Assembly (NCBI RefSeq): GCF_963921235.1
Contig: NC_086108.1
Location: 50,780,001 to 50,844,000, forward strand
Length of the DNA stretch: 64,000 bases
Direction of reading: 5' to 3'
Source of the DNA: Mobula hypostoma
Taxonomy: Eukaryota
Below, piece after piece: positions 14,420 to 61,130 of this stretch; positions within the stretch are counted from its first letter, which is position 1; each line of letters begins with the position of its first letter. Position numbers and translations under genes: made by a program. The notes below the pieces were generated by a model. The model ran no database searches and had not been told where the DNA came from. It saw nothing but the letters and a program-made list of their open reading frames with translations.

Positions 14420-16592
14420 AGAGGTTCTGTTTAGAAATACTGGTCACATAATGTAGGAATTAGAAACAGGTGAAGGCCACTCATAAAGATGAGAAAATTA
14501 AAGAAACCAAAAAGATCCGAACCACTGGATTATCAACAACTACAAAACAACCCTCATCTGAAAACAGAATACACAATCAAGGTGAAAAACTATTTTCAAT
14601 TGCTGCAGGATGAAGGAGGCAAATCTTCCTGGGACATACTGAAGGAATCCATGGTTGTAGCTGCAAAAGAAACCACCTCACGAAAAGAACGGAAAAGTAA
14701 GAAGAAATGGATAACTGAAGATATAATACAATTGATGCAACAAAAACAGACCATCAAACCAAGAAACAGCGAAGAATACAAACAACTTGATAAGACAATA
14801 AAAAGAAAATGCAGAGAAGCTAAAGACAGATGGCTAAATGAGAAATGCTCAGAGAGAGAAATGCTATAAATCCATAACCCTGGAACAAAGTTGATGCACA
14901 ATAAGATTAAAGAACTAACGGGGAAATTACCTTGCTCAGCAAGTGGATGCATCAAGGCAAAAGATGGCAGCTTAATTATGAACAAAGAGGAAATCCTAAA
15001 CAGATGGACAGAATATATAAAAGAACTTGAAGACCAAAGAGGAGAAAAACTGAACATAAAGAAGAATCTTGAAGGACCTAGCATTCTAAAATCAGAAATT
15101 CGAGCAGCCGTAAATGAAACAAAACATAACAGAGCAACTGGTCCGGACAACATCGCTGTTGAAATGATACTGGCCTTAGAAGATTTTGGAATAGAGAAAA
15201 TAACAGAAACAGCAAATAAAATCTATGATCATGGGGAGATACCTGATGATTTAAGTAAATCAGTGTTCATCACACTTCCAAAGAAAGAGGGAGCAACAGA
15301 ATGTGAGTTACATCGTACAATAAGCCTGATGAGCCACGTGGCAAAAATTATTCTCAGAGTAATCATGATGAGAGCAAGAAGCTGTATAAAACCAGAAATC
15401 AGTAAAGAACAATGCGGCTTTGTGGAAAACACTGGAACCAGAAATGCAGTTTTCATGCTACGGATGATCTGTGAACGAGCCATCCAGGTACAAAAAGACA
15501 TCTACCTATGTTTCATTGTCTATACAAAAGCTTTTGACACTGTCAGACAGCGAGGTCTTCTGGAAATGCTTCAAGATCTTGACATAAATGGGAAAGATAT
15601 ACGTTTCTTAAGAAACTTATACTGGGACCAGACAGCATCCATCAGAATAGAAGGAGAAGTGAGTGAGTATGTGAATATCACGAGAGGGGTCAGGCAAGCT
15701 TGTGTCTTTTCACCAGACTTATTTAACCTGTACCTGTATAGTGAAAATATCTTGAGAAGTATCAAAGACATCAAAGGATTCACAATTGGGGCCATAATAT
15801 AAATAACATCAGATATGCTGATGACATCATACTAATAGCTGACTCAGAAACAAAACTTCAAGAACTACTCACTATAGTGGCAGCAGAAAGTAATCGCAGA
15901 GGCCTCTCAATCAACACCAAGAAGGCAGAAAGCATGGTCATCTCCAGAAAGACAAACATCCCACAATGTGTGATCAAGATCGGAAATACAAACACCAAAC
16001 AAGTCAACAAACTCAAATATCTTGGTAGCCTAATAACAAGTAATGGCAGGTGCGACACAGACATCAAATACAGCATAGCAATGGCAAAAGAAACTTTCCA
16101 AAAAATGAAGACCGTATTAACAGACAGAAAGATGAGCATGTACACTAAAAACAGAATACTGCAGTGCTATATTTATTCTATCCTGACTTATGGAAGTGAA
16201 TGCTGGACCATTTCTCCAGCAATGGAGAAGAGACTAGAAGCAGCTGAATTATGGTTCTACAGGAGAATATTAAAAATATCATGGACCACACACACATCAA
16301 ATGAAGAAGTCTCAGAAGAGCCCAAGCAGTTCGCTCACTCATACCAACAATAAGAGGAAGACAACTCAGGTTCCTAGGACACATCGTGTGGAAAGATGAA
16401 CTAGAAAAACTCATACTCTCTGGAAAGATTGAGGGGAGCAAACCTAGAGGAAGACCTCAGCTTATGTACATCAAAAGCTTAGCCAGGTGGCTACACATCG
16501 AGGAAATGGAAGTCATCCAAAAAACGAAGGATAGATCTATATGGAAAACCATGGTCACCAAAGTCCGCATCGTTTATGGTACCTAGACGGAC
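14420..16592 (+). mobile_element. RTE-clade LINE, 5'-truncated, several stops and frameshifts
   Basis: RT motifs (HRTISLMSH, EQCGF, YTKAFD, GVRQACVFSPDLFNLY, IRYADD at ~15808-15825), then KYLGS, YGSECWT and the RTE-type C-terminus GKIEGSKPRGRP. Confidence 0.9.
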
Positions 16593-20090: not shown

Positions 20091-20996
20091 AGTACTATAA
20101 AACATAGAACAGTGAAGCACAGTATAGGCCCTTCAGCCCACAATGTTGTGCTAACTGACTTTAAGATGAATCTAACACTACTCTTCCACATAGCTTCCAA
20201 TTTTCTTTCATCCATGTGCCAATCACTTCCAATCAGAGAGGAGGTCCAGGAGCCTGAAGATGCACAAACGGTTTAGGAACAGCTTCTTCCCCCCGCCATC
20301 AGATTTCTGAATGGTCCACGAACCCATGAACACTACCTCGCTATTCCTCTTTTGCACTATATTTTTTATTATTCAAAGATTCAAAGTATGTACGCCGTAT
20401 ACAACCCTGAGATTCATCTTTCTGCGAGCAGCCATGAAGCAACGTTACACTATGGAACCTGTTCCAAGAAAACATCGAACAACCAATGCGCAAAAAAGCC
20501 AACAGTTCACAGAAACAGCAAAACGTGCGAAAAGCACAGAAAATAAAACATCAATGAAATAAGTAGTCTAGGGCTGTTTGGTTTTGTTCAGTTCACTCTA
20601 GTGCTGTGTTGTTTGTTGAGTGCAGGCTGCAGAGCCAGTCCACCCTGATCAAAATCACACAAAATGGCAATAAAAAAAGGAGCAATCAGAAACACGTATA
20701 ACATGAACTACAGAATCCAATCCACAAGCCACTTTGATTAAACCTTGCCCAAGACCCTGGTCTCCGGCAGCATTAAGTGGGAGGTACAGAGAGAGACCAG
20801 TCACATTAAATGCAGGCAGACAGTGCTGAACACCCACTTGCTGCCTGGAGTCATCCTCATTGATTTCAACCGTGCTTGACACTTCAATCGGCAAGAAATG
20901 GAGTCGAGCATAGGCTTGTGCCCTGTCTCCAGGCTTCTTGGCTCCCCAAAGCCACACACTCCGCTTGAAACTTCACCGAGCTCCCTCGGAAACAGC

Positions 20997-21856
20997 TGTT
21001 ACATACCCCGTAACTGGGTTGCCAAACCAGCAGAAATGGATCACTCAGTTGGAGTCTGGAGTACTAGAACTAAGAAAGTTTTATTAAAGAAACAAGCAAC
21101 ACATTAATCGAAAGGATAATAAATGCAACAGTTCAGCGATGATAAACACACATGTGCACAGAATTAAGATAACAGCATCAATCAAGCTCTATCGTTGTCT
21201 AGGGGGTAAATGACCAAATTTCAAAATGACTCAAAGTTCAGTCCAGTTCAGTTTGCAGTAATCGTTGCCATGGCGAGGGACAACGTGGGGGGAGAGAGAG
21301 AGGGAACAGGAACAACTGATCATTCAGAACACGGCTTCACTCACAGACCGGCGATATTGCTCACAAGCAGCTTTTTGGGCGGGTCCTTGGTGATGTCACC
21401 TGAGGTCACCGACTGTGACCCCTCCTCCAGATGCGGTCGATCCTCTGCAGTGAACCCGGCACCCAGGCAAGGGCGGACACACACCGGGTTCCCGCTGATC
21501 GTACCTTTCCACCCTTGTCGTTATCTGGTACTTCTCACCCACTCGTGAGAGGCACACCGCTTCCAGGGTCTCGTTACCTCGGGTGGCGTGTGTGTCCCTG
21601 TCTTAGCGAACCTGTCCCTTTTTATCCCCCTGCTGGGGTATCGCCTGTCCATCACTTCAAACAGCTCAGGGTTCAAAGGGGGAGCCGCTCCAGACAGCTC
21701 TCTCTCTCCCACGTCCCTTCATTACACATCTCCAGATGCTGCTCCATTGTTCCTTATCTCTCCTTCCCCTGAGGGCAGGTGGCAGACCAACTGCTGATGT
21801 CACTGATGCTAACCCAGGCCAGCAAACATCTTAATTTTATGTGTATTCTCGTAACA
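20997..21856 (-). repeat. 3' LTR (860 bp)
   Basis: Direct repeat of 25061-25917. About 16 substitutions and 2 small indels by manual comparison (~98% identity). Confidence 0.95.
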
Positions 21857-21870
21857 CTTCCCCCCTTTAA
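21857..21870 (-). other. Polypurine tract
   Basis: The minus strand reads AAAGGGGGGAAG immediately before the 3' LTR. Confidence 0.85.
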
Positions 21871-22028
21871 GGATTTTTACCGAGAGGTAAAAATTACAAA
21901 CATGACTACATTATTTGATACATACACAATATACATCTTTATCAGCCATTTGGCTAACACAGCGAGTTTGAAGCTGTCAACACCTTGACAGACAGTCATC
22001 ACATTTTCTGTTCCTTTTACACGTGTTA

Positions 22029-24962
22029 TTAATAATCCCTTAGACCAGGCTCCAACTCAGCAAACTTCATAGTGGCCAAAAACACTGATGAATTGCGACC
22101 AATATAACCTCTCATTTGGTTTTGTCCCGGACCACAATAACAAGGGTCATCCCATTCCGACTCAGTTTTCTCTCGCAAGGGTTTAGTAGGAGGGGGACGG
22201 GTATTGACCGCAGAGTTATTGCAAAACTTCCTGCAGTACCCCACCATCTCCAAAAGCCTTCTGAGGGCCCTCTTGTCTGTCGGGGTTGGGAGGTCAGCGA
22301 TAGCCTGCACTGTAGCTTGCATCGCTGCCAGCTGCCCCTGTGTCACCACAATTTCCAGGTAAGTGACCCTCGTGTGGCCGAATTCATTTTTTTCAAGGTT
22401 CACTATCAAACTGGCTTCAGACAGCCGTATAAAATTGCCAATACACACCTCTGTGTTCATCAGCCCTTTAGTCACTGAATTACTCAAAAAATATGGGTGT
22501 TGTTTACTTGGCTGCCCTATTGTAACCACAATCACCCAACGTCCCAGTTCTTTGCATTTCCTCGGGACAATCAAACACATGGGTGCGAGTCGTTTAATTA
22601 CTCCTTCTAAAGATTCGCTTTGTTCGGGGATTAAGGGAGAGACCTTATCAGTAGACCTGGCCAAAACAATAGCCTTCTCCCATCTGACCGATCCCATCCT
22701 AATCTTTTCAAAATGGTTTTTTCCTCTTATCAGGGGGCCCCTAGCTTCATTGATTTCCATGCTAACACCGACTAGGTTTGTTAGCATATCAAAAGCCGGT
22801 GACCGTCTCAGTTCGCGTCGGTCATGATCAATAACATTCTTCCCCCTGGGCAGCCGGTAAATCTCTTTCATGATTCCACCAACTGTTTCCTCCAGCACCG
22901 CAAAATGTCCACCGGGGGGTACCTCGTGGGCCATGTTAAAAACCCCATCCCCATAACTCTTTTGCACCACCCCCCATTCCTCATCTGCGGGTACTGTACT
23001 TGATTTCCCTTTTTTCCTTAGCACTTCCTCCTCCGCACAATAGCTTGTCAAGGCTGTGTCAGAGAGAGCGGTCTCTGCCAAAACCATCAGCCCCTCGTCT
23101 CGCTCCTGCGTCTGCACAAATTCTTTCCTGGCTACTGCTACGTCTGTCCCAGCTCCCTCACTACCTCTTATCTCACTACACCCTGTCTCATACAAGGTTG
23201 GCAGAAATGTTTCAGCCAAATTCACCATTGGGGGCCCGCGATGAACCTGTGAGTCCATGGGCCGGGCCTCAATGCTGGCAGGCTGACCCGTCAATCTCAC
23301 GACTGGGAACACAATTCCTCCGGCGATGTCATTACCAAGCAAGACTTCCACGTCTTTCATCGGTAATTCGGACCTCACCCCGATCGTGACTAGTCCAGAG
23401 ACCAGGTTGCTCTGTAAGTGTATCTGGTGCACAGGGACTGACTCTGTCCCTTCCCCAACACCTTTGACCTCTACCTCCCCAGTCTGGGTCTCTGAACTAA
23501 ACTCTAATACACTCTTCAGTATTAGTGACTGACACGCTCCCGTGTCTCTCCAGATCCGCACTGGAACTGGTTTTAACCCCTCCTTCAATGACACCAGTCC
23601 GGCTGAGATAAACCTCTCGCGCCCTTCCTGGACTTTTTCAGACCTGTCCTTCCCTAGCGGTTCACTTAACAGCTCGATACAGCCATTCCAAATTTCCGCT
23701 TTTCCTTTCCCCGTCTCCTTCCTTGGGGCAAAGCACCTGGACGCAAAGTGTCTGACTTTCCCACAATTATAACAGACGACCCCAGGAGACTTCCTACCAG
23801 ACTGCTCCCGGTCTACCTTATCCTTTTCACTAGTCCCCGGCTTACTTTCTGACTTTTCCGGCGGACTCTCCCCTCCGTCCTGACTACCCTTCTGGTAGCC
23901 TTTACTCGGGGCAAACTTCATTTTATGCGTCAACGCATACTCATCCGCTAACTTAGCAGTTGCGGCTAACGTGGCTGCCTCTTTCTCATCGAGGTAGGAT
24001 CTCATACCCTCAGGGACACAACCTTTAAACTGCTCAATCAGAATCAGCTGCAGCAGTCTGTCATAATCCCCCTCTACCCCTTTCGAGGCGCACCAACGCT
24101 GACAATATGTTTGCATCTCATGAGCAAACTCCAAATACGTGCGGTCCCACCACTTCCTCGCATTCCGGAACCTCTGCCGGTATGCCTCCGGGACCAACTC
24201 ATAAATCCTGAGGATGGCCTCTTTCACCACCTCATACCTCTGGGCATCTTCCGCGGACAAAGCTGAGTAAGCTTCTTGGGCCTTCCCTTTCAGTACACTC
24301 TGAAGTAAAACAACCCACTTATCCCTCGGCCAGTCCTGACTTATAGCCACTTTTTCGAAATGGAGAAAGTACCGATCCACGTCGGTATCGTCAAATGGGG
24401 GAACCATCCTAACCTCCTGGGTCGCCCGGAACCCTCCACCTTGGTTCGGCACGAGCCCCTGCTCGGCCCTTATCTTTAACTTCTCCAGCTCAAATTCCCT
24501 TTCCCTCTGTTTCTCCTCTCTCTCCAACTGTCTGTCCCTCTCTCTCTCTTCTCTCTCCAACTGTCTTTCTCTCTCTTGCCTTTCTACCTCTTTCTCTTTC
24601 TCCCGCCTTTCTAACTCTCTCTCTTTCTCCCGCCTTTCTAACTCTCTCTCCTGCCTTTCCAACTGTCTCTCTTCGTGTTCTAACTGCCGTACCCGGAACT
24701 CGTGCTCGAGTCTCAGTTTTTCAAGCTGTACCTGTACCGCGTCTCCAGCAGGTTTTTCAATAGACACCATCCCCAGCTCACCTTGGGGAAACACACCTTT
24801 AGATACATAGTGCTCTACAATAGCTCTGTGTATCTCCTCTCTCCTCATTGTCGACTTCACCTTAGCAAGATTCAACCGTTTGGCCACAGCTATCAATTCC
24901 GATTTCCTGGCATCCTCTAATGCCTCCAAGGTCGGCGCCTTTATAAATTCCTCAACCTCCAT
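22029..24962 (-). CDS. Gag-protease polyprotein with degenerate pol-derived tail (977 aa)
   Basis: E/R-rich coiled coil; capsid/SCAN-like region (VPEAYRQRFR…LILIEQFK); CCHC knuckle CYNCGKVRHFASRC; protease RDTGA. These are followed by remnants of the IN zinc finger, RT thumb/connection and RNase H, with no YxDD or DDE core. Confidence 0.9.
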   Translation of the reverse strand: MEVEEFIKAPTLEALEDARKSELIAVAKRLNLAKVKSTMRREEIHRAIVEHYVSKGVFPQGELGMVSIEKPAGDAVQVQLEKLRLEHEFRVRQLEHEERQLERQERELERREKERELERREKEKEVERQERERQLEREERERDRQLEREEKQREREFELEKLKIRAEQGLVPNQGGGFRATQEVRMVPPFDDTDVDRYFLHFEKVAISQDWPRDKWVVLLQSVLKGKAQEAYSALSAEDAQRYEVVKEAILRIYELVPEAYRQRFRNARKWWDRTYLEFAHEMQTYCQRWCASKGVEGDYDRLLQLILIEQFKGCVPEGMRSYLDEKEAATLAATAKLADEYALTHKMKFAPSKGYQKGSQDGGESPPEKSESKPGTSEKDKVDREQSGRKSPGVVCYNCGKVRHFASRCFAPRKETGKGKAEIWNGCIELLSEPLGKDRSEKVQEGRERFISAGLVSLKEGLKPVPVRIWRDTGACQSLILKSVLEFSSETQTGEVEVKGVGEGTESVPVHQIHLQSNLVSGLVTIGVRSELPMKDVEVLLGNDIAGGIVFPVVRLTGQPASIEARPMDSQVHRGPPMVNLAETFLPTLYETGCSEIRGSEGAGTDVAVARKEFVQTQERDEGLMVLAETALSDTALTSYCAEEEVLRKKGKSSTVPADEEWGVVQKSYGDGVFNMAHEVPPGGHFAVLEETVGGIMKEIYRLPRGKNVIDHDRRELRRSPAFDMLTNLVGVSMEINEARGPLIRGKNHFEKIRMGSVRWEKAIVLARSTDKVSPLIPEQSESLEGVIKRLAPMCLIVPRKCKELGRWVIVVTIGQPSKQHPYFLSNSVTKGLMNTEVCIGNFIRLSEASLIVNLEKNEFGHTRVTYLEIVVTQGQLAAMQATVQAIADLPTPTDKRALRRLLEMVGYCRKFCNNSAVNTRPPPTKPLREKTESEWDDPCYCGPGQNQMRGYIGRNSSVFLATMKFAELEPGLRDY

Positions 24963-25030: not shown

Positions 25031-25056
25031 GTTCAAAATCGCGGACGAGAACCCCA
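25031..25056 (-). other. Primer binding site, tRNA-Pro type
   Basis: The minus strand reads TGGGGTTCTCGTCCGCGAT, 4 nt downstream of the 5' LTR. It resembles the tRNA-Pro PBS TGGGGGCTCGTCCGGGAT. Confidence 0.8.
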
Positions 25057-25060
25057 CTTA

Positions 25061-25917
25061 TGTTACGTACCCCGTAACTGGGTTGCCAAACCAGCAGAAA
25101 TGGATCACTCAGTTGGAGTCTGGAGTACTAGAACTAAGAAAGTTTTATTAAAGAAACAAGCAACACAGTAATCGAAAGGATAATAAATGCAACAGTTCAA
25201 CAATGATAACCACACATGTGCACAGAATTAAGATAACAGCATCAATCAAGCTCTATCGTTGTCTAGGGGGTAAATGACCAAATTTCAAAATGACTCAAAG
25301 TTCAGTCCAGTTCAGTTCACAGTAATTGTTGCCATGGCGAGGGACAACGTGGGGGGAGAGAGAGAGGGAACAGGAACAACTGATCATTCAGAACACTGCT
25401 TCACTCACAGACCAGCGAGATTGCTCACAAGCAACTTTTGGGCGGGTCCTTGGTGATGTCACCTGAGGTCACCGACTGTGACCCCTCCTCCAGATGCGGT
25501 CGATCCTCTGCAGTGAACCCGGCACCCAGGCAAGGGCGGACACACACCGGGTTCCCGCTGATCGTACCTTTCCACCCTGGTCGTTGTCTGATACTTCTCA
25601 CCCACTCGTGAGAGGCACACCGCTTCCAGGGTCTCGTTACCTCGGGTGGCGTGTGTCCCTGTCTTAGCGAACCTGTCCCTTTTTATCCCCCTGCTGGGGT
25701 ATCGCCTGTCCATCACTTCAAACAGCTCAGGGTTCAAAGGGGGAGCCGCTCCAGACAGCTCTCTCTCTCCCACGTCCCTTCATTACACATCTCCAGACGC
25801 TGCTCCATTGTTCCTTATCTCTCCTTCCCCTGAGGGCAGGTGGCAGACCAACTGCTGATGTCACTGATGCTAACCCAGGCCAGCAAACATCTTAATTTTA
25901 TGTGTATTCTCGTAACA
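25061..25917 (-). repeat. 5' LTR (857 bp)
   Basis: Direct repeat of 20997-21856, adjacent to the PBS. Confidence 0.95.
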
Positions 25918-26364
25918 CAGCAAAGCGTCAGATCGTTAAATCAGCCCGAAAACTCACCATCAAAATGCAAATCACAGGTTCCAAGCTTTGTAGCAGAATC
26001 ATGACTAAAAGAAGAAGAAGTAAACAGAGTAGTTTCGCAAACTTTCTGAAGGACATGACCTTTGGTTGTGTTGTTTGCTGGCATCATCTTCATTATTGTA
26101 AGATAATCATTTGTATGTCTCGCGGGGTACTGCTGTCACAAAGACAGCACACTGTATGACCTACGCCACTGATAACAGACAGATTCTGAAGACTAGCTCA
26201 GTTTCTGACAGATGTTTTTGGTGGTAGGCTGCAACACAACAGTGAGAAAATACTGAGAAAAACATTGGTGCAACGTAAATTTTCACTGAAATTTATTCTG
26301 TTGTTAGAATCATGCTTTGCATTGTTACATGCTCAAGGAGATCTGTTTTTTTTAGTGAGAATGA

Positions 26365-27357: not shown

Positions 27358-30300
27358 TTCCTCAGAGACCTTGGCCTTCACCCTGCCTTGTGCAGCTGGA
27401 TGCTAGACTTCCTGTCAGATCGCCAGCAGGTGATAAGAGTGGGCTCCCTTCCCTCTGTCCGTCTGAACCTTAACACAGAAGCCCCCCAGGGATATGTCAT
27501 AAGCCCCCTCCTTTACTCTCTGTATACCCATGACTATGTCGCCACCCACAGCTCTAATCTGCTAATTAAATTTGCTGATGGTACTACATTGATTGGCTTT
27601 ATCTTAAATAATAATGAGGCAGCCTACAGAGAGGAGTCATCTCCCCGACATAGTGGTGTCAAGAAAACAACCTCTCACTCAACGTCGCAAAAACAAAGGA
27701 GCTGATTGTGGACTACAGGAGGAATGGAGACAGGCTAATCCCTACTGATATCAACGGATCTGGGGTTGAGAGGGTGAACAGCTTTAAATTCCTCGGCATA
27801 AACATCACTGAGGACCTCACGTGGTCTGTACGTACCGACTGTGTGGTGAAAAAGGCACAACAGCGCCTCTTTCACCTCAGACGATTGAAGAAGTTTGATA
27901 TGAGTTACCAAATCCTAAGGACTTTCTACAGGGGCACAATTGAGAGCATCTTGACTGGTTGGATTGCTGGCTGGTATGGGAACTGTACTTCCCTCGGTCG
28001 CAGGACTCTGCCGAGAGCAATGCGGACAGACCCAGCACATCTGTAGATGTGAACTTCCCACTATTCAGGACATTTGCAGAGACAGGTGTGTATAAAGGGC
28101 CCAAAGGATCATTGGGGACTCGGGTCACCCTGAACACAAACTGCTCCAGGTGCTACCATCTGGGAAACGGTATCACAGCATAAAAGCCAGGACCAACAGG
28201 CTCCAGGACAGCTTCTTCCACTAGGCCATCAGACTAATTAATTCATGCCAACACAATTGTACTTCTATGCTACATTGACTGTCCTGTTGTACATACTATT
28301 TATTACAAATTACTATAAATTTGTAAATTTAAAATATACTGGCACAGAGTCCGGCCCTGTGGCTCAGAAGGGTAGGGAAAGGAAGAGAAAGGCAGTAGTA
28401 ATAGGGGATTCTATAGCTAGGGGGTCAGCAGGTGATTCTGTGAATGCAGGAAAGAAACTCGGATGGTAGTTTGCCTCCAGGCTGCCAGGGTCCGGGATGT
28501 TTCAGATCGCGTCCAAGATATCCTGCAGTGGGAGGGAGAACAGCCAGAGATCGCAGTACATATTGGTACCAACGATATAGGTAGGAAAAGGGAAGACGTC
28601 CTGAAAATAGACTACAGGGAGTTAGGAAGGAAGTTGAGAAGCAGGACCACAAAGGTAGTAATCTCGGGATTACTGCCTGTGACACATGACAGTGAGTATA
28701 GAAATAGAGTGAGGTGGAGGATAAATGTGTGCTGAGGGATTGGAGCAGGGGGCAGGGATTCATATTTCTGGATCATTGGGACCTCTTTTTGGGCAGGTGT
28801 GACCTGTACAAAAAGGACAGGTTGCACTTGAATCCCAGGGGGACCAATATCCTGGTGGGGAGGTTTGCTAAGGCTACCGGGGAGAGTTTAAACTAGAATT
28901 GTTGGGGGGTGGGAACTGAACTGAAGAGGCTGGGCAAGAGGCTGTTGGCTCACAAATAGAGAAAGCTTGGAGACAGTGTGTGGGGGAGGATAGGTAGGTG
29001 ATAGAGAAGGATGCGCTCAAACCGACGATTTGAGATGTGTCTATTTTAACGCAAGGAGTATTGTGAACAAAGTGGATGAGCTTAGAGCGTGGATCAGTAC
29101 TTGCAGCTATGACATTGTGGCCATTATAGAGACTTGGATGGCTCAGGGACAGGAATGGTTACTTCAAGTGCTGGGTTTTAGATGTTTCAGAAAGGACAGG
29201 GAGGGAGGCAAAAGAGGTGGGGGCGTGGCACTGTTGATCAGAGATAGTGTCACGGCTGCAGAAAAGGTGGACATCATGGAGGGATTGTCTACCGAGTCTC
29301 TGTGGGTGGAGGTTAGGAACAGGAAGGGGTCAATAACTCTACTGGGTGTTTTTTATACCCTGCCCAATAGTAACAGGGATATCGAGGAGCAGACAGGGAA
29401 ACAGATCCTGGAAAGGTGTAATAATAACAGAGTTGTCATGATGGGAGATTTTAATTTCCAAAATATCGATTGGCAACTCCCTAGAGTGAGGGGTTTAGAT
29501 GGGGTAGAGTTTGTTAGGTGTAATCAGGAAGGTTACTTGACACAATATGCAGATAAGCCTACAAGAGGAGAGACTGTACTTGATTTGGTATTGGGAAATG
29601 AACCTGGTCAGGTTTCAGATCTCACAGTGGGAGAGCATTTTGGAGATAGTGATCATAGTTCTATCTCCTTTACAATAGCATTGGAGAGAGATAGGAACAG
29701 ACAAGTTAGAAAAGCGTTTAATTGGAGTAAGGGGAATTATGAGGCAATCAGGCAGGAACTTGGAAGCTTAAATTGGGAACAGATGTTCTCAGGGAAAGGT
29801 ACGGGAGAAATGTGGCAAATGTTCAGGGGATATTTGTGTGGGGTTCTGCATAAGTACCTTCCAATGAGACAAGGAAGTTATGGTAGGGTACAGGAACTGT
29901 GGTGTACAAAGGCTGTAGTAATTCTAGTCAAGAAGAAAAGAAAAGCTTACAAAAGGTTCAGAGAGCTAGGTCATTTTAGAAATCTAGAAGATTATAAGGC
30001 TAACAGGAAGGAACTTAAGAAGGAAATTAGGAGAGCCAGAAGGGGCCATGAGAAGGCCTTGGCGGGCAGGATTAAGGAAACCCCCAAGGCATTCTACAAG
30101 TATGTGAAGAGCAAGAGGATAAGACGTGAAAGAATAGGACCTATCAAGTGTGACAGTGGGAAAGTGTGTATGGAACCAGAGGAAATAGCAGAGGTACTTA
30201 ATGAGTACTTTACTTCAGTATTCACTATGGAAAAGGATCTTGGTAAGTGTAGTGATAATTTGCAGCGGACTGAAAAGCTTGAGCATGTATATAAGAGGAT

Positions 30301-31985
30301 GTGCTGGAGCTTTGGAAAGCATCAAGTTGGATAAGTCACTGGGACTGGATGAGATGTACCCCAGGCTACTATGGGAGGTGAAGGAGGAGATTGCTGAGCC
30401 TCTGGCAATGATCTTTGCATCATCAATGGGGACGGAAGAGGTTCCAGAGGTTTGGAGGGTTGTGGATGTTGTTCCCTTATTCAAGAAATGGAGTAGAGAT
30501 AGCCCAGGAAATTACAGACCAGTGAGTCTTACTTCAGGGATGTTAAGTTGATGGGGAAGATCCTGAGAAGTGGGATTTATGAACATTTGGAGAGATATAA
30601 TATGATTAGGGTTAGTCAGCATGGCCTTGTCAAGGGCAGGTCGTGCCTTACGAATCTGATTGAAATTTTTGAGGATGTGACTAAACACATTGATGAAGGA
30701 AGAGCAGTAGATGTAGTGCATATGGATTTCAGCAAGGTATTTGATAGGGTACCCCATGCAAGGCTTATTGAGAAAGTAAGGAGGCATGGGATCCAAGGGG
30801 ACATTGCTTTGTGGATCCAGAACTGGCTTCCCCACAGAAGGCAAAGAGTGGTCGTAGACGGGTCATAGTCTGCATGGAGGTTGGTAACCAGTGGCGTGCC
30901 TCAGGGATCTGTTCTGGGACCCTTACTCTTCGTGATTTTTATAAATGACCTGGATGAGGAAGTGAGGGATGGGTTAGTAAATTTGCTGATGACAGAAAGG
31001 TTGGGGATGTTGTGGATAGTGTGGAGGGCTGTCAGAGGTCACAGCAGGACTTCAATAGGATGCAAAACTGGGCTGAGAAGTGGCAGATGGAGTTCAACCC
31101 AGATAAGTATGAAGTGGTTCATTTTGGTAGATCAAATCTGATGGCAGAATATCGTATTAATGGTAAGACTCTTGGCAGTGTGGAGGATCAGAGGGATCTT
31201 GGGGTCCAAGTCCATAGGACACTTAAAGCTGCTGCACAGTTTGACTCTGTGGTTAAGAAGGCATATGGTGTATTGGCTTTCATCAATCGTGGAATTGAAT
31301 TTAGGAGCCGAGAGGTAATGTTGGAGCTATATAGGACCCTGGTTAGACCCCACTTGGAGTACTGTGCTTAGTTCTGGTTGCCTCACTACAGGAAGGATGT
31401 GGAAACCATAGAAAGGGTGCAAAGGAGATTTACAGAGATGTTGCCTGGATTGGGGAGCATGCTTTATGAAGACAGGTTGGGTGAACTTGGCCTTTTCTTC
31501 TTGGAATGACGGAGGATGAGAGGTGACCTGATAGAGGTGTATAAAGTGATGAGAGGCATTGATCGTATGGATAGTCAGAGGCATTCTCCCAGGGCTGAAA
31601 TGGCTGTCACAAGAGGGCACAGGTTTAAGGTGCTTGGGAGCAGGTACAGAGGAGACGTCAGGGGTAAGTTTTTACACAGAGAGTGGTGAGTGCGTGGAAT
31701 GGGCGGCCGGCAACGGTGGTGGAGGCAGATACGATAGGGTCTTTCAAGAGACTTTTGGATAGGTACATGGAACTTAGAAAAATAGAGGTCTATGGGTAAT
31801 CCTAGTAATTTCTAAGGTAGGGACATGTTCAGCACAACTCTGTGGGCTGAAGGGCCTGTATTGTGCTGTAGGTTTTCCATGTTTCTATCTTTCTAAATTG
31901 CACATTGCACATTTAGACGGAAATGTAATTTAAAGATCTTTACTCATGTATGTGAAGGATGTAAGAAATAAAGTCAATTCAATTT
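27358..31985 (+). mobile_element. Rex1/Babar-like LINE (27358-28321; 3' UTR resumes 31894-31985), split by a CR1
   Basis: [18 protein letters not shown]…KFADG, FKFLGINITEDL and KKAQQRLFHLRRLKKF. The AATAAAGTCAATTCAATT tail lies after the CR1. Confidence 0.85.
28338..31893 (+). mobile_element. CR1 LINE: ORF1 esterase part plus degraded ORF2
   Basis: SGNH esterase motifs VVIGDS, HIGTND and DRLHLN. APE endonuclease 29030-29680 (NARS, ETW, GDFN, SDH). RT with stops and frameshifts. TTTCTAT-type tail. TAAATT is present at both junctions (28316-28321, 31894-31899). Confidence 0.92.
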
Positions 31986-41140: not shown

Positions 41141-41575
41141 ATGGTAGTTTGCCTCCCTGGTGCCAGGGTCCGGGATATTTCTGATCGTGTCCAAGATATC
41201 CTGAAGTGGAAGGATGAGGAGCCAGAGGTCATGGTACATATAGGTACCAATGACATAGGTAGGAAAAGGGATGAGGTCCTGAAAGGAGAATATAGGGAGC
41301 TAGGAAGGGAGTTGAGAAAAAGGACCGCAAAGGTAGTAATCTCGGGATTACTGCCTGTGCCACGCGACAGTGAGAGTAGGAATGCGATGAGGTGGAGGAT
41401 AAATGCGTGGCTGAGGGATTGGAGCAGGGGGCAGGGATTCAAGTTTTTGGATCATTGGGACCTCTTTTGGCGCAGGCGTGACCTGTACAAAAAGGATGGG
41501 TTACACTTGAATCCTAGGGGGACCAATATCCTGGCAGGGAGATTAGCGAGGGCTACTGAGGTGACTTTAAACTAG
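41141..41575 (+). CDS. CR1 ORF1 C-terminal SGNH/GDSL esterase domain (5'-truncated)
   Basis: CLPGARV, VHIGTNDIG and DGLHLN motifs; ends …TLN*. Confidence 0.85.
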   Translation: MVVCLPGARVRDISDRVQDILKWKDEEPEVMVHIGTNDIGRKRDEVLKGEYRELGRELRKRTAKVVISGLLPVPRDSESRNAMRWRINAWLRDWSRGQGFKFLDHWDLFWRRRDLYKKDGLHLNPRGTNILAGRLARATEVTLN

Positions 41576-41580
41576 AATGG

Positions 41581-44500
41581 TTGGGGGGTGGGAATCAAAT
41601 TAAAGAGGCTAGGCGTGAGGAGGTTAGTTCACAACAGGGGGGTGGGAACCAGTGCAGAGAGACAGAGGGGTGTAAAGTGAGGGTAGAAGCAAAAAGTACT
41701 AAGGAGAAAAGTAAAAATGGCAGGCCGACAAATCCAGGGCAAGCATTAAAAAGGACCACTTTACAACATAATTGTATAAGGGCTAAGAGAGTTGTAAAAG
41801 AGCGCCTGAAGGCTTTGTGTGTCAATGCAAGGAGCATTCGTAATAAGGTGGATGAATTGAAAGTGCAGATTATTATTAATGATTATGATATAGTTGGGAT
41901 CACAGAGACATGGCTCCAGGGTGACCAGGGATGGGAGCTCAACGTTCAGGGATATTCAATATTCAGGAGGGATAGACATGAAGGAAGGGGAGGTGGGGTG
42001 GCGTTGCTGGTTAAAGAAGAGATTAACGCAATAGAAAGGAAGGACATAAGCCGGGAAGATGTGGAATCGATATGGGTAGAGCTGCGTAACACTAAGGGGC
42101 AGAAGACGCTGGTGGGAGTTGTGTACAGGACACCTAACAGTAGTAGTGAGGTCGGAGATGGTATTAAACAGGAAATTAGAAATGTGTGCAATAAAGGAAC
42201 AGCAGTTATAATGGGTGACTTCAATCTACATGTAGATTGGGTGAACCAAATTGGTAAAGGTGCTGAGGAAGAGGATTTCTTGGAATGTATGCGGGATGGT
42301 TTTTTGAACCAACATGTCGAGGAACCAACTAGAGAGCAGGCTATTCTGGACTGGGTTTTGAGCAATGAGGAAGGGTTAATTAGCGATCTTGTCGTGAGAT
42401 GCCCCTTGGGTAAGAGTGACCATAATATGGTGGAATTCTTCATTAAGATGGAGAGTGACATAGTTAATTCAGAAACAAAGGTTCTGAACTTAAAGAGGGG
42501 TAACTTTGAAGGTATGAGATGTGAATTAGCTAAGATAGACTGGCAAATGACACTTAAAGGATTGACAGTGGATATGCAATGGCAAGCATTTAAAGGTTGC
42601 ATGGATGAACTACAACAATTGTTCATCCCAGTTTGGCAAAAGAATAAATCAAGGAAGGTAGTGCACCCGTGGCTGACAAGAGAAATTAGGGATAGTATCA
42701 ATTCCAAAGAAGAAGCATACAAATTAGCCAGAGAAAGTGGCTCACCTGAGGACTGGGAGAAATTCAGAGTTCAGCAGAGGAGGACAAAGGGCTTAATTAG
42801 GAAGGGGGAAAAAGATTATGAGAGAAAACTGGCAGGGAACATAAAAACGGACTGTAAAAGCTTTTATAGATATGTAAAAAGGAAAAGACTGGTAAAGACA
42901 AATGTAGGTCCCCTGCAAACAGAAACAGGTGAATTGATTATGGGGAGCAAGGACATGGCAGACCAGTTGAATAATTACTTTGGTTCTGTCTTCACTAAGG
43001 AGGACATAAATAATCTTCCAGAAATAGTAGGGGACAGAGGGTCCAGTGAGATGGAGGAACTGAGCGAAATACATGTTAGTAGGGAAGTGGTGTTAGGTAA
43101 ATTGAAGGGATTGAAGGCAGATAAATCCCCAGGGCCAGATGGTCTGCATCCTAGAGTGCTTAAGGAAGTAGCCCAAGAAATAGTGGATGCATTAGTGATA
43201 ATTTTTCAAAACTCGTTAGATTCTGGACTAGTTCCTGAGGATTGGAGGGTGGCTAATGTAACTCCACTTTTTAAAAAAGGAGGGAGAGAGAAACCGGGGA
43301 ATTATAGACCGGTTAGCCTAACATCGGTGGTGGGGAAGCTGCTGGAGTCAGTTATCAAGTATGTGATAACAGCACATTTGGAAAGCGGTGAAATGATCGG
43401 ACAAAGTCAGCATGAATTTGTGAAAGGAAAATCGTGTCTGACGAATCTCACAGAATTTTTTGAGGGTGTAACTAGTAGAGTGGATAGGGGAGAACCAGTG
43501 GATGTGGTATATTTGGATTTTCAAAAGGCTTTTGACAAGGTCCCACACAGGAGATTAGTGTGCAAACTTAAAGCACACAGTATTGGGGGTAAGGTATTGG
43601 TGTGTGTGGAGAATTGGTTAGCAGACAGGAATCAAAGAGTGGGAATAAACGGGACCTTTTCAGAATGGCAGGCGGTGACTAGTGGGGTACCACAAGGCTC
43701 AGTGCTGGGACCCCAGTTGTTTACAATATATATTAATGACTTGGATGAGGGAATTAAATGCAGCATCTCCAAGTTTGTGGATGACACGAAGCTGGGTGGC
43801 AGTGTTAGATGTGAGGAGGATGCTAAGAGGATGCAGGGTGACTTGGATAGGTTGGGTGAGTGGGCAAATTCATGGCAGATGCAATTTAATGTGGATAAAT
43901 GTGAAATTATCCACTTTGGTGGCAAAAATAGGAAAACAGATTATTATCTGAATGGTGGCCGATTAGGAAAAGGGGAGGTGCAACGAGACCTGGGTGTCAT
44001 TATACACCAGTCATTGAAAGTGGGCATGCAGGTACAGCAGGCGGTGAAAAAGACGAATGGTATGCTGGCATTTATAGCGAGAGGATTCGAGTACAGGAGC
44101 AGGGAGGTACTACTGCAGTTGTACAAGGCCTTGGTGAGACCACACCTGGAGTATTGGGTGCAGTTTTGGTCCCCTAATCTGAGGAAAGACATCCTTGCCT
44201 TAGAGGGAGTACAAAGAAGGTTCACCAGATTGATTCCTGGGATGGCAGGACTTTCATATGAAGAAAGACTGGATGAACTGGGCTTGTACTCATTGGAATT
44301 TAGAAGATTGAGGGGGGATCTGATTGAAACGTATAAGATCCTAAAGGGATTGGACAGGCTAGATGCAGGAAGATTGTTCCCGGTGTTGGGGAAGTCCAGA
44401 ACGAGGGGCCACAGTTTGAGGATAGAGGGGAAGCCTTTTAGGACCGAGATGAGGAAAAACTTCTTCACACAGAGAGTGGTGAATCTGTGGAATTCTCTGC

Positions 44501-44613
44501 CACAGGAAACAGTTGAGGCCAGTTCATTGGCTATATTTAAGAGGGAGTTAGATATGGCCCTTGTGGCTACGGGGGTCAGGGGGTATGGAGGGAAGGCTGG
44601 GGCGGGGTTCTGA
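41581..44613 (+). CDS. CR1 ORF2: APE endonuclease plus reverse transcriptase, uninterrupted, no upstream AUG
   Basis: Endonuclease motifs NARS, ETW, YRTP, GDFN and SDH; RT motifs [32 protein letters not shown] and KFVDD; CR1 C-terminus. The listed start is TTG and the frame is open from 41560. Confidence 0.92.
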   Translation: MGGGNQIKEARREEVSSQQGGGNQCRETEGCKVRVEAKSTKEKSKNGRPTNPGQALKRTTLQHNCIRAKRVVKERLKALCVNARSIRNKVDELKVQIIINDYDIVGITETWLQGDQGWELNVQGYSIFRRDRHEGRGGGVALLVKEEINAIERKDISREDVESIWVELRNTKGQKTLVGVVYRTPNSSSEVGDGIKQEIRNVCNKGTAVIMGDFNLHVDWVNQIGKGAEEEDFLECMRDGFLNQHVEEPTREQAILDWVLSNEEGLISDLVVRCPLGKSDHNMVEFFIKMESDIVNSETKVLNLKRGNFEGMRCELAKIDWQMTLKGLTVDMQWQAFKGCMDELQQLFIPVWQKNKSRKVVHPWLTREIRDSINSKEEAYKLARESGSPEDWEKFRVQQRRTKGLIRKGEKDYERKLAGNIKTDCKSFYRYVKRKRLVKTNVGPLQTETGELIMGSKDMADQLNNYFGSVFTKEDINNLPEIVGDRGSSEMEELSEIHVSREVVLGKLKGLKADKSPGPDGLHPRVLKEVAQEIVDALVIIFQNSLDSGLVPEDWRVANVTPLFKKGGREKPGNYRPVSLTSVVGKLLESVIKYVITAHLESGEMIGQSQHEFVKGKSCLTNLTEFFEGVTSRVDRGEPVDVVYLDFQKAFDKVPHRRLVCKLKAHSIGGKVLVCVENWLADRNQRVGINGTFSEWQAVTSGVPQGSVLGPQLFTIYINDLDEGIKCSISKFVDDTKLGGSVRCEEDAKRMQGDLDRLGEWANSWQMQFNVDKCEIIHFGGKNRKTDYYLNGGRLGKGEVQRDLGVIIHQSLKVGMQVQQAVKKTNGMLAFIARGFEYRSREVLLQLYKALVRPHLEYWVQFWSPNLRKDILALEGVQRRFTRLIPGMAGLSYEERLDELGLYSLEFRRLRGDLIETYKILKGLDRLDAGRLFPVLGKSRTRGHSLRIEGKPFRTEMRKNFFTQRVVNLWNSLPQETVEASSLAIFKRELDMALVATGVRGYGGKAGAGF

Positions 44614-58868: not shown

Positions 58869-59009
58869 ATAGCCACAGCAGAGGCTGGGCAGTGGCTGAA
58901 GTAAACATATGATAATGAAGGTCAAACTGCTGGAGGAAATGAGCACGCTGTGACTATGTATAAAACTGATGAATTTCAGGGTGACATGCACCTGCAAACA
59001 GTGCACCCA

Positions 59010-61130
59010 AAATGGATGCAACAAGTTCTGTTGTTAGCAGAGTGGCCTGTACGTCTGATACCTCCTTGGCATGCATCAATCTGGAGGCTAACTTAGCTGC
59101 ATTATTTGCACGGCAGCAATCATTGAAAGACAAACATGCGTCGGAACAACAAGAGGAGCAGGTGGAAGAGGGGCTACAGAAAGGAAACAAGCACCGATAG
59201 AGAAGGAAGGAGCAGCTTAATTCCAGGAAGAATTGCAGCACAGATAGCTGAAGTGAAAGTGCTTCAAGTGCTGTGGGTGCTAAACATGCTCCAACAGAAC
59301 AGTTCAATGGTGAGAGTTCCAATGTTGACATGGCACAGAGAAAGTCCAACATACTCAATGTCAATGTGGATACATTTGTTCCTCAAGTGTCCGTGAGCCA
59401 CAAGTTTGGACCCCAAGGGGTTGTTCAGGACATTGGCTCTCAGGCTGCACCAAGGAGACACTCTGAACCCTATGCCATATCCAATAGTACAAGGTGCTTC
59501 TGAGGATATTCATTTACAGTATGGTGACACATGCGCTTCAGATAATTAAAGTCTAAATTAGTGCGCTGGAGGCTATAAAGATGCAAAAGGAAACAGCAAG
59601 CTTAGTGATGGAACAACAATGCATGAGTCTCTGCCTAAAAGATTCAAATCTTTGATGGTGATCCATTGTAATATCATTCATTTCAAAGGGCTTTCAACAA
59701 TCGCACTGAAGGCAAGACTGATGATTATGGCAACCATTTCTTTTTTCCTCAAACGGTTCACTGGAGGTTACCCTAGAAAGCTTGACAAAAGTTGCCAGCA
59801 AGCTAACCTGGAGGAAGGATATCTAAAGGCCAAAGCTTTACTACAGGAACATTTTGATAATAAGCACCAAAATGAATCAGTCTATATGGAAAAGGCTCTT
59901 TCTTGGCAGCATATCAAATCAGAAGATGTGAAAGCTCTTCAAGATTACAGTTTTTTTCTTAGAGTCAGTTGTAATGCAATGGGAGATGTTCAGCTCATGT
60001 GAGAGCTTGATATGCCTATTAATATATCGATTGTTGTAAAGAAGTTATCTTATATGCTTAGGGAAAAATGGAGATGGCTTCCTTGTGAGCTATTTGATAA
60101 TCACAACTGCAAGGCTACTGTCATCAACCTTGTCAAGTTTATTGAAGAACAAGTGAGGATTTCTACACACCTGGTGCATGGAAACACACAGGATACTGCA
60201 CCATCAGCAGTAAAAAAGGTGTGAACAAAACTAAGTCACAAATTCATTCGAAAGAAGCAGCTCTACTACTACTGTGGCTACGGTGAAAAGTGAAGCTACA
60301 ACTGAGCCCGGAACTAATGAAAGACAAATTACCTTGTCAGTCAAAAGGGTTTATCTGTCCTGCCAGGGTGAACATACTTTGGATTTGTGCTCTCAGCCAG
60401 AGAAAAAGATTCATAATGAGAAAATTGTCTTCCTAAAAAGAATGGTGTCCTCTTTGGTTGTTTGCATAAGGGCCACATCAGCAAGGCTTGCAGGAAAAGC
60501 CTTTCACGGAAGCTATGAAGTGACAAGCTTCATGTTCACTCTGATGAAAAGGGTGCAGATTCGAAACAAGCCGTAAAAAAATCAAACACAGCAGTGAGTA
60601 ACACCCTGGTATCCAATGGCCTTACGGAGGCCGGTGATCATGCTTGTAAACTTCCTGTAATTCCAGTTCAGGTGAAGTCTCAGAAGAGTTACAAGACAGA
60701 GGTTATGCTTTCCAAGATCAGGGAAGTACAGCAGTGTTCTCTACAGTGAGCCTCATGAACAAGCTCAACAGGAGAAAGAAGACACATCCTCTTACGCAGC
60801 GTGGGTCAGAAGGTTGTGAAAGCTCTGTCGTTTCAGGATTGGAAGTAGCTGGTTTAGATAGTTTGAACTATTGTGAACTGCCTAACATCTATATGCAGGA
60901 ACGTATGCCTGCCACAATGGGAACATTCCTTGTCGGAGAGATCTTCAGGAATGGTCTCACCTGAAGCATAATCATTTGCCAGAAATTGATTTTTAAAATT
61001 GAGCTGCAAATAGGGGCCTCAAGCATTGGAGCTGTTGCAAGTGACTCCCAGTGTTAGTGATGGATATCATGCAATCAGAACAATGGTGGGTTGAACTCTT
61101 ACTGGACCATTGAAAGGAGACTGTGATGGT
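59010..61130 (+). mobile_element. BEL/Pao LTR retrotransposon gag-protease relic
   Basis: GYLKAKALLQEHF…YMEKALSWQHIKSEDVKALQDYSFFLRVSCNAM, KLSYMLREKWR, a degenerate Cys-His region, and KLPVIPVQVKS followed by a DQGS protease-like site (~60716). No LTRs recognised. Confidence 0.75.

What the first reader, a model, noticed from the sequence alone, without database searches (positions are those of the whole stretch)
22029..23330. LTR element keeps a 977-aa open frame whose pol half is a string of non-catalytic fragments
Seen: after intact-looking Gag and protease (DTG), about 400 aa continue in frame. They pass through an integrase zinc-finger remnant (MAHEVPPGGHF, ~22860-22950), the RT N-terminal motif (QPSKQHPY, ~22500), the RT thumb/connection (LIVNLEKNEF…VTYL…PTPTDKRALRRLLEMVGYCRKF) and an RNase H remnant (IGRNSSVFL, from DHNPLVFL). 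The terminal VKGTENV…DCLSR motif lies out of frame at ~21985-22030. The DDE core, the YxDD palm and most of RNase H are deleted. The PR-IN-RT order is the established Gmr1 hallmark. Several large deletions that all preserve frame, together with LTRs ~98% identical, suggest a recently mobile non-autonomous family under selection for translation. It may make its own particles and borrow, or interfere with, helper Pol.
Basis: partly seen in the sequence, partly recalled or inferred. Interest (0 to 1): 0.7.

Follow-up and report, generated by a model that had tools for sequence, protein, structure and literature searches.

The report
Ray retrotransposon with translated junk tail
This is a young copy of an abundant jumping-gene family of rays that keeps its shell protein and protease but has whittled its copying enzymes down to scraps in one unbroken reading frame; the scraps drift freely as protein, so being translated, not the product, likely helps it spread with enzymes it likely borrows from an intact relative.

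Summary
Confirmed, with corrections. A 4.9-kb LTR element (LTRs 98% identical, 4-bp target duplication) carries one 977-codon frame: SCAN-type capsid, zinc knuckle, protease, then about 420 codons of pol scraps in integrase-RT-RNase H order. The tail is not three or four pieces but a chain with six or seven domain-killing deletions plus smaller ones, almost all read in one frame; three frame breaks fall only in the last 30 codons of pol. The structure is a high-copy family: same junctions in Mobula gene models and in runs of four organism labels. Shared variants show Gag-protease under purifying selection (5 silent, 1 replacement) and the tail not (8 silent, 30 replacement, no stop; p=0.006, best-supported subset only). 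Shared tail indels are mostly in frame, but one frameshift is shared by two copies. Best reading: a non-autonomous Gmr1-like family whose tail is translated filler, likely kept open for RNA stability or cis packaging; interference by the tail protein is not supported. Closest: mouse IAP 1Δ1, wheat Quinta. This scan noted the same kind of element before on other DNA of this genome (e1-8032323).

The parts
25918..25921 (-). 4-bp target-site duplication GCTG (upstream copy)
25061..25917 (-). 5' LTR, 857 bp, TG...CA
25038..25056 (-). primer-binding-site-like 19-mer 4 nt after the LTR; resembles a tRNA-Pro site (recalled, not tested) with mismatches
   Evidence: sequence
22029..24962 (-). single 977-aa gag-protease-pol-remnant frame
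24474..24677 (-). charged coiled-coil-like repeat in Gag, length varies in frame among copies
   Evidence: (joints)
23922..24191 (-). SCAN domain (capsid C-terminal), aa 258-347
   Evidence: E 1.4e-12
23733..23777 (-). CCHC zinc knuckle, aa 396-410
   Evidence: E 0.007, below Pfam cut-off
23307..23615 (-). aspartic protease, DTG at aa 473-475; 30 of 37 near-invariant columns kept
22845..23306 (-). protease-integrase linker and integrase N-terminus; both His of the zinc finger kept, CxxC deleted
22710..22844 (-). three or four short scraps of the integrase core; catalytic D, D and E regions and C-terminal domain deleted
   Evidence: 7-12 bits each, significant only as a chain
22482..22709 (-). 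integrase-RT linker and RT N-terminus (QHPY)
22428..22481 (-). RT scrap of uncertain origin at the palm deletion; no intact YxDD
22140..22427 (-). RT thumb/connection, the largest piece; 25 of 38 near-invariant columns kept
   Evidence: (E 7e-29)
22065..22139 (-). RNase H scrap, in frame, after an 86-position deletion
21980..22063 (-). end of RNase H in three out-of-frame pieces; the long frame stops at 22029
21857..21868 (-). polypurine tract
   Evidence: sequence
20997..21856 (-). 3' LTR, 860 bp, AATAAA at 21085
20993..20996 (-). 4-bp target-site duplication GCTG (downstream copy)

Best explanation
This is a young copy of a high-copy, non-autonomous Gmr1-like LTR retrotransposon family of rays whose Gag and protease are conserved while its pol has eroded, by many in-frame deletions, into a tail that drifts freely as protein and is likely kept open only so that the RNA is translated almost to the 3' LTR. 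Shown: structure, family status, shared junctions, purifying selection on Gag-protease, no amino-acid constraint on the tail. Inferred: the one frame gives a Gag-protease-tail polyprotein; the protease would free the capsid and leave the tail as waste; Gag would package its own RNA; RT, RNase H and integrase would come in trans from an autonomous relative with matching LTR ends. Inferred, least certain: lineages with an early stop spread less, most likely because a stop after the protease would lengthen the untranslated 3' end from about 0.95 kb to about 2.2 kb and expose the RNA to nonsense-mediated decay (general knowledge, untested here), or because packaging is coupled to translation in cis as reported for IAP 1Δ1.
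For: Family: 6 of 15 Mobula gene models read end at the same stop with the same junctions; contigs of four organism labels cover 30 of 30 bins of the tail and bridge the junctions, some at 82-84% identity (records 9, 20, 23, 25, 27, 31); 153 different flanks at one LTR end in run X1. Selection: shared variants 5 silent/1 replacement in Gag-protease, 8/30 with 0 stops in the tail, Fisher p=0.006; shared variable columns among six full-length copies 6 of 467 against 17 of 398 (p=0.01), while singletons are equal (27 of 467, 20 of 398; p=0.65). Frame: with no preference for frame, 16 of 18 segments down to 22064 fall in the long frame, the two others being 3 and 6 codons, and then three breaks follow in 85 nt; 5 of 6 shared tail indels among gene models are in frame (p=0.018); 4 of 5 joints net a multiple of three (one with unknown filler) and three gapped contigs lose 12, 15 and 27 nt; 4-7 stops would be expected from the tail's excess divergence, none is fixed (rough). 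Parallel: stingray relatives fill the same slot with a decayed Gag-protease duplicate, also in frame.
Against: P0004 and P0005, on different large contigs, share one frameshift near aa 876, so a lineage likely moved without the last 100 codons. 9 of 15 gene models end early within the tail (7 leave frame, 2 simply end), though 8 of these fall at 7 unshared points or the one shared point and single breaks are expected after insertion. One joint nets -31 (depth 5.6, one contig); 1-nt indels occur in the last 30 codons, up to half the depth at 22119 in run X16. Zero stops among 38 shared variants is not significant alone (1.2-1.6 expected). Variant tables are the best-supported subsets: 40 of 193 and 40 of 610 rows, 12 of 22 and 12 of 90 indel rows; only 6 shared Gag-protease variants. 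Gene models favour long frames. No helper and no proof of transcription or translation.
Confidence: 0.6

Rival explanations
1. The open frame is history and luck. Domains were lost from 5' to 3' while the downstream enzymes were still useful in cis, which forced the early deletions to stay in frame; since then a few master copies have simply not yet picked up a stop.
For: Order is protease-integrase-RT-RNase H, so integrase deletions had to spare RT. One shared frameshift exists and 9 of 15 models end early. The stop-deficit estimate is rough.
Against: Indels that still vary among copies, all of which lack the RT palm, are mostly in frame; amino-acid decay came after loss of function yet left no fixed stop; frame breaks pile up only at the very end.
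Confidence: 0.22
2. The tail is a working protein: the RT thumb or integrase N-terminal scrap docks on, recruits or poisons helper Pol inside mixed particles.
For: The thumb/connection survives as one 96-residue piece; IAP 1Δ1 fusion protein is reported to act in cis.
Against: Tail pN/pS 1.2-1.6; the thumb has the most shared variable columns, 7 of 98, and keeps 25 of 38 near-invariant residues against 62 of 68 in capsid; two copies share a break inside it; stingray relatives have an unrelated filler.
Confidence: 0.12
3. This locus is a domesticated host gene kept open by host selection.
For: Unbroken 977-codon frame; Gag-only LTR families can serve the host (zebrafish Bik, passages).
Against: Both LTRs and target duplication intact at 98%; site likely empty in organism B (record 32); the copy's near-private changes are 9 replacement to 4 silent, as for neutral decay.
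Confidence: 0.04

Closest known systems
Gmr1-like Ty3/gypsy LTR retrotransposons (PMC8220671, passages)
   Same: Integrase upstream of RT; single gag-pol frame; SCAN-type capsid; closest full-length database relatives have this order
   Different: Integrase core, RT palm and most of RNase H deleted; cannot be autonomous
Mouse IAP 1Δ1 (PMC6466679 and PMC7411935, passages; primary paper not held)
   Same: Non-autonomous, in-frame internal deletion gives a Gag-Pol fusion; translation reported to help mobilisation in cis
   Different: One 1.9-kb deletion that cuts gag, against many deletions that spare Gag and protease; betaretrovirus-like against gypsy; here the tail is measurably unconstrained
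Wheat RLG_Quinta with helper RLG_Cereba (PMC11302176, abstract and section 5)
   Same: Gag plus a C-terminal stretch of unknown function in one frame, no RT or integrase; proposed to supply Gag to a single-frame helper
   Different: Plant centromeric clade; helper identified; no protease named; its extra domain is not described as pol scraps in the section read
TR-GAG of plants (PMC8704663, passages) and zebrafish Bik-1/Bik-2 (PMC12067270, passages)
   Same: Mobile LTR elements that encode Gag and depend on a partner for Pol
   Different: No pol remnant in frame; Gag only

Membership tests
Gmr1-like Ty3/gypsy | integrase upstream of RT | tested here: met
   remnants are colinear with relatives whose order is protease-IN-RT-RNase H
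Gmr1-like Ty3/gypsy | SCAN-like capsid domain (link to Gmr1 recalled; seen in search listing) | tested here: met
   PF02023 E 1.4e-12
Gmr1-like Ty3/gypsy | RT groups with named Gmr1 elements in a tree | not tested
   no named Gmr1 sequence was among the fetched proteins; RT palm is absent
Gmr1-like Ty3/gypsy (autonomous) | intact integrase DDE, RT YxDD, RNase H | tested here: not met
   hence a derivative, not an autonomous member
LTR retrotransposon | TG...CA LTRs, target duplication, polypurine tract | tested here: met
LTR retrotransposon | primer-binding site matching a host tRNA | tested here: inconclusive
   19-mer after the LTR resembles a recalled tRNA-Pro site with mismatches; no host tRNA was available
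non-autonomous/autonomous pair (criteria in PMC11302176) | many dispersed copies with the same defect | tested here: met
non-autonomous/autonomous pair (criteria in PMC11302176) | helper sharing PBS, LTR termini and promoter half | not testable with these tools
   no genome held; no Mobula protein with intact pol among the 120 hits listed in each
TR-GAG / Gag-only elements | single frame encoding Gag only | tested here: not met
   frame also holds protease and 420 codons of pol scraps
IAP 1Δ1-like | fusion frame acts in cis to raise mobilisation | not testable with these tools
   only the evolutionary signature was tested

The most novel reading that the evidence does not exclude
Non-autonomous gypsy elements of rays are selected to be translated almost up to the 3' LTR whatever the sequence says: pol scraps here, a decayed Gag-protease duplicate in stingray relatives. 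RNA surveillance or translation-coupled packaging, not protein function, would then shape their coding capacity, and these families would act as Gag-protease donors to single-frame helpers.
Probability: 0.4. Interest if true: 0.62.

Novelty: new variant of a known kind. Interest (0 to 1): 0.42.

Why it matters
Gag-coding parasites of LTR retrotransposons are known, but a high-copy vertebrate family with conserved Gag-protease and a neutral, stop-free 420-codon tail separates selection on being translated from selection on protein. With thousands of copies likely, that is directly measurable, and it bears on why IAP 1Δ1-type elements outcompete their helpers. Practical point: these copies are annotated as Mobula genes, some as isoforms of host genes, and a long open frame here is no sign of a functional protein. 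I found no paper on this family: searches (listings only) showed none, and search 47 none on NMD shaping such frames; subscription journals and repeat databases were not searched.

Tried and rejected
Helper among proteins: full-length relatives are 48% identical or less in Gag-protease; the nearest integrase-bearing one is a partial Hypanus model (P0042, 63%); its integrase found no Mobula protein among 120 of 860 hits listed. No RNA holder listed; runs X5 and X13 are guessed RNA and hold the element, X5 with four 177-311 nt contigs at depth 475-565 and few differences, a weak hint only, since DNA of a high-copy family could give cover. Summed contig depth (80,000-510,000 inside, 15-29 in the unique flank of X1) is not a copy number; used only as order of magnitude. 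Reading aa 840-843 as the decayed YxDD was considered and left open (13 bits against a two-piece alternative). The two off-frame 3- and 6-codon segments are taken as chance; a compensated frameshift is not excluded. The other-frame controls are weak because stops are penalised. A low-depth bin in X17 (22098-22143) was not explained. Sequence look-ups of earlier findings gave nothing. The IAP primary paper was not held. No supplements were read. Five short Mobula cluster members (266-485 aa) were not read.

Full report
Structure. The element lies on the minus strand, 25917-20997, between two GCTG copies. The LTRs (857 and 860 bp, TG...CA) differ at 16 of 857 aligned bases, 11 of them transitions, plus two small indels. 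One frame of 977 codons runs 24962-22029. Pfam finds SCAN at aa 258-347 and a weak zinc knuckle; the tail alone hits nothing. Close relatives are named Mobula hypostoma and M. birostris by their source, so the window is likely from a mobulid ray.

What the tail is. I aligned aa 541-977 to a profile of 25 full-length relatives with cheap jumps. The tail reads as a colinear chain with profile skips of 20, 9, 4, 5, 18, 23+30 (or 53), 89, 142, about 146 and 86 positions. These remove the zinc-finger CxxC, the integrase catalytic regions and C-terminus, the RT palm and most of RNase H; landmarks in the reference P0052 confirm integrase before RT. The weakest stretch, aa 703-843, scores 38.5 bits against 3.2 +/- 5.6 for 300 shuffles, 0 reaching it; single scraps of 7-12 bits are not significant alone. 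On DNA with no preference for frame, 16 of 18 segments down to 22064 fall in the long frame, the other two being 3 and 6 codons; then three breaks follow within 85 nt at the end of RNase H. Aa 828-845 is ambiguous, and no reading gives an intact YxDD.

It is a family. Of 20 Mobula proteins listed I read 15. Six end at the same stop with the same junctions; seven leave the frame inside the tail, two of them (P0004, P0005) at the same point near aa 876; two end near aa 620. The catalytic DTG is kept in 14 of the 15. Twenty of 23 listed runs, under four organism labels, hold the stretch or part of it. Contigs of X1, X9, X16 and X17 cover 30 of 30 bins of the tail and bridge junctions with 31 or more bases each side, some at 82-84% identity (records 9, 15, 20, 23, 25, 27, 31), so the deleted form is older than this copy. 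X1 shows 153 unlike flanks at one LTR end.

Selection on protein. I classified 57 variant rows in the frame: 40 of 193 and 17 further ones from the 40 of 610 shown. Thirteen near-fixed rows, taken as this copy's own changes (4 silent, 9 replacement), were set aside. Of the rest, Gag-protease has 5 silent and 1 replacement, the tail 8 silent, 30 replacement and 0 stops (Fisher p=0.006; pN/pS 0.06-0.08 against 1.2-1.6). Three codons carry more than one row. Among six full-length copies shared variable columns are 6 of 467 in Gag-protease and 17 of 398 in the tail (p=0.01), singletons 27 of 467 and 20 of 398 (p=0.65); between subfamilies 4 of 482 against 11 of 288 (p=0.006). Against the Hypanus model P0042 the window protein is 72% identical in capsid, 62% in protease, 39% in the integrase N-terminus, whereas a distant intact relative shows 55, 51 and 68%. 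The tail has therefore decayed as protein.

Selection on frame. Five of six indels shared by two or more gene models in the tail are in frame (p=0.018 at one in three), though models favour long frames. In reads, the 5 joints listed net -78, -33 (filler unknown), -42, -42 and -31, the last at depth 5.6; gapped contigs lose 12, 15 and 27 nt. Of 12 small-indel rows shown (of 22), three lie after the stop, three are single-base changes in the last 30 codons (0.2% or less in the two deep DNA runs, up to half in X16), three appear to cancel each other and three belong to the 12-nt gap. UTR indels reach 1-5% in X1 and 9-53% in X9 (12 of 90 rows shown). From the tail's excess divergence (0.2-0.37 per site) 4-7 stops would be expected and none is fixed (rough). 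Against: the shared P0004/P0005 frameshift, the -31 joint, 9 of 15 models ending early, unseen rows, and the fact that early integrase deletions had to stay in frame while RT was still useful.

Parallel case. Seven stingray-type proteins (Hypanus, Hemitrygon, one unnamed) with related Gag-protease continue in frame for 148-333 aa into a decayed second copy of Gag-protease (24-42% identity, best E from 9e-17 to 0.002), not pol scraps. They are gene models and DNA was not seen. Earlier notes of this scan describe ray gypsy families with captured myosin in an open, drifting frame; these are leads I did not test, but I had reached the filler reading before opening them.

Mechanism. Shown: anatomy, family, conserved Gag-protease, unconstrained tail. 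Inferred: a polyprotein cut by its own protease, self-packaging by Gag, enzymes in trans from a helper not found here (note e1-8032323 says one with near-identical LTRs exists, untested by me). Inferred with least certainty: the frame is kept because an early stop would lengthen the 3' untranslated end from about 0.95 kb (stop 22029 to AATAAA 21085) to about 2.2 kb, inviting nonsense-mediated decay (own knowledge), or because of translation-coupled cis packaging.

Comparison. IAP 1Δ1 is the closest in working: an in-frame deletion gives a fusion that acts in cis (PMC6466679, PMC7411935, passages). Quinta has Gag plus an unknown domain and a known helper (PMC11302176, abstract and section 5). 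TR-GAG and Bik are Gag-only (PMC8704663, PMC12067270, passages). Gmr1 domain order from PMC8220671 (passages). PMC10924933 was seen as abstract only and not used. No paper on this family appeared in searches. Verdict: real, a new variant of a known kind; interest 0.42.

Noticed in passing
proteins P0043-P0046, P0048, P0049, P0051 (Hypanus, Hemitrygon, one unnamed): Related Gag-protease followed in frame by a decayed duplicate of Gag-protease; P0043 keeps the start of integrase before the filler. Three end in a K-R/S-G-E/D-G run whose codons could be the polypurine tract, i.e. the frame may reach the 3' LTR (inference, no DNA).
   Followed up: partly
names: P0002, P0018, P0023: Copies of this family are annotated as isoforms of host genes (MACC1, UBE2G2, PPM1Lb) in Mobula: chimeric transcripts or annotation errors.
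   Followed up: no
window 24474-24677: Charged Gag repeat expands and contracts in frame among copies (joints of 42, 96, 117, 123 nt).
   Followed up: partly
window 25897-26349, run X1: The contig at the LTR-flank junction has depth 14.9 while the flank bin sums to 28.7: two haplotypes, possibly a heterozygous insertion; not shown.
   Followed up: no
window 22095-22143: Two X1 contigs carry a less decayed RNase H motif just upstream of 22095, and depth in X17 drops to 1.8 in this bin with a 72-nt loose end: older subfamily or closer trace of a helper.
   Followed up: no
window 41141-44613 (+): LINE with an esterase-like ORF1 piece (GDSL, E 6e-16) and an unbroken 800-aa endonuclease-RT frame; CR1-like by recall.
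   Followed up: partly
window 29138-31371 (+) and 14489-16353 (+): Two broken LINE copies (endonuclease and RT hits).
   Followed up: partly
window 58954-60002: Fragments that look like the gag of a BEL/Pao element (recalled resemblance; no supporting Pfam hit).
   Followed up: partly
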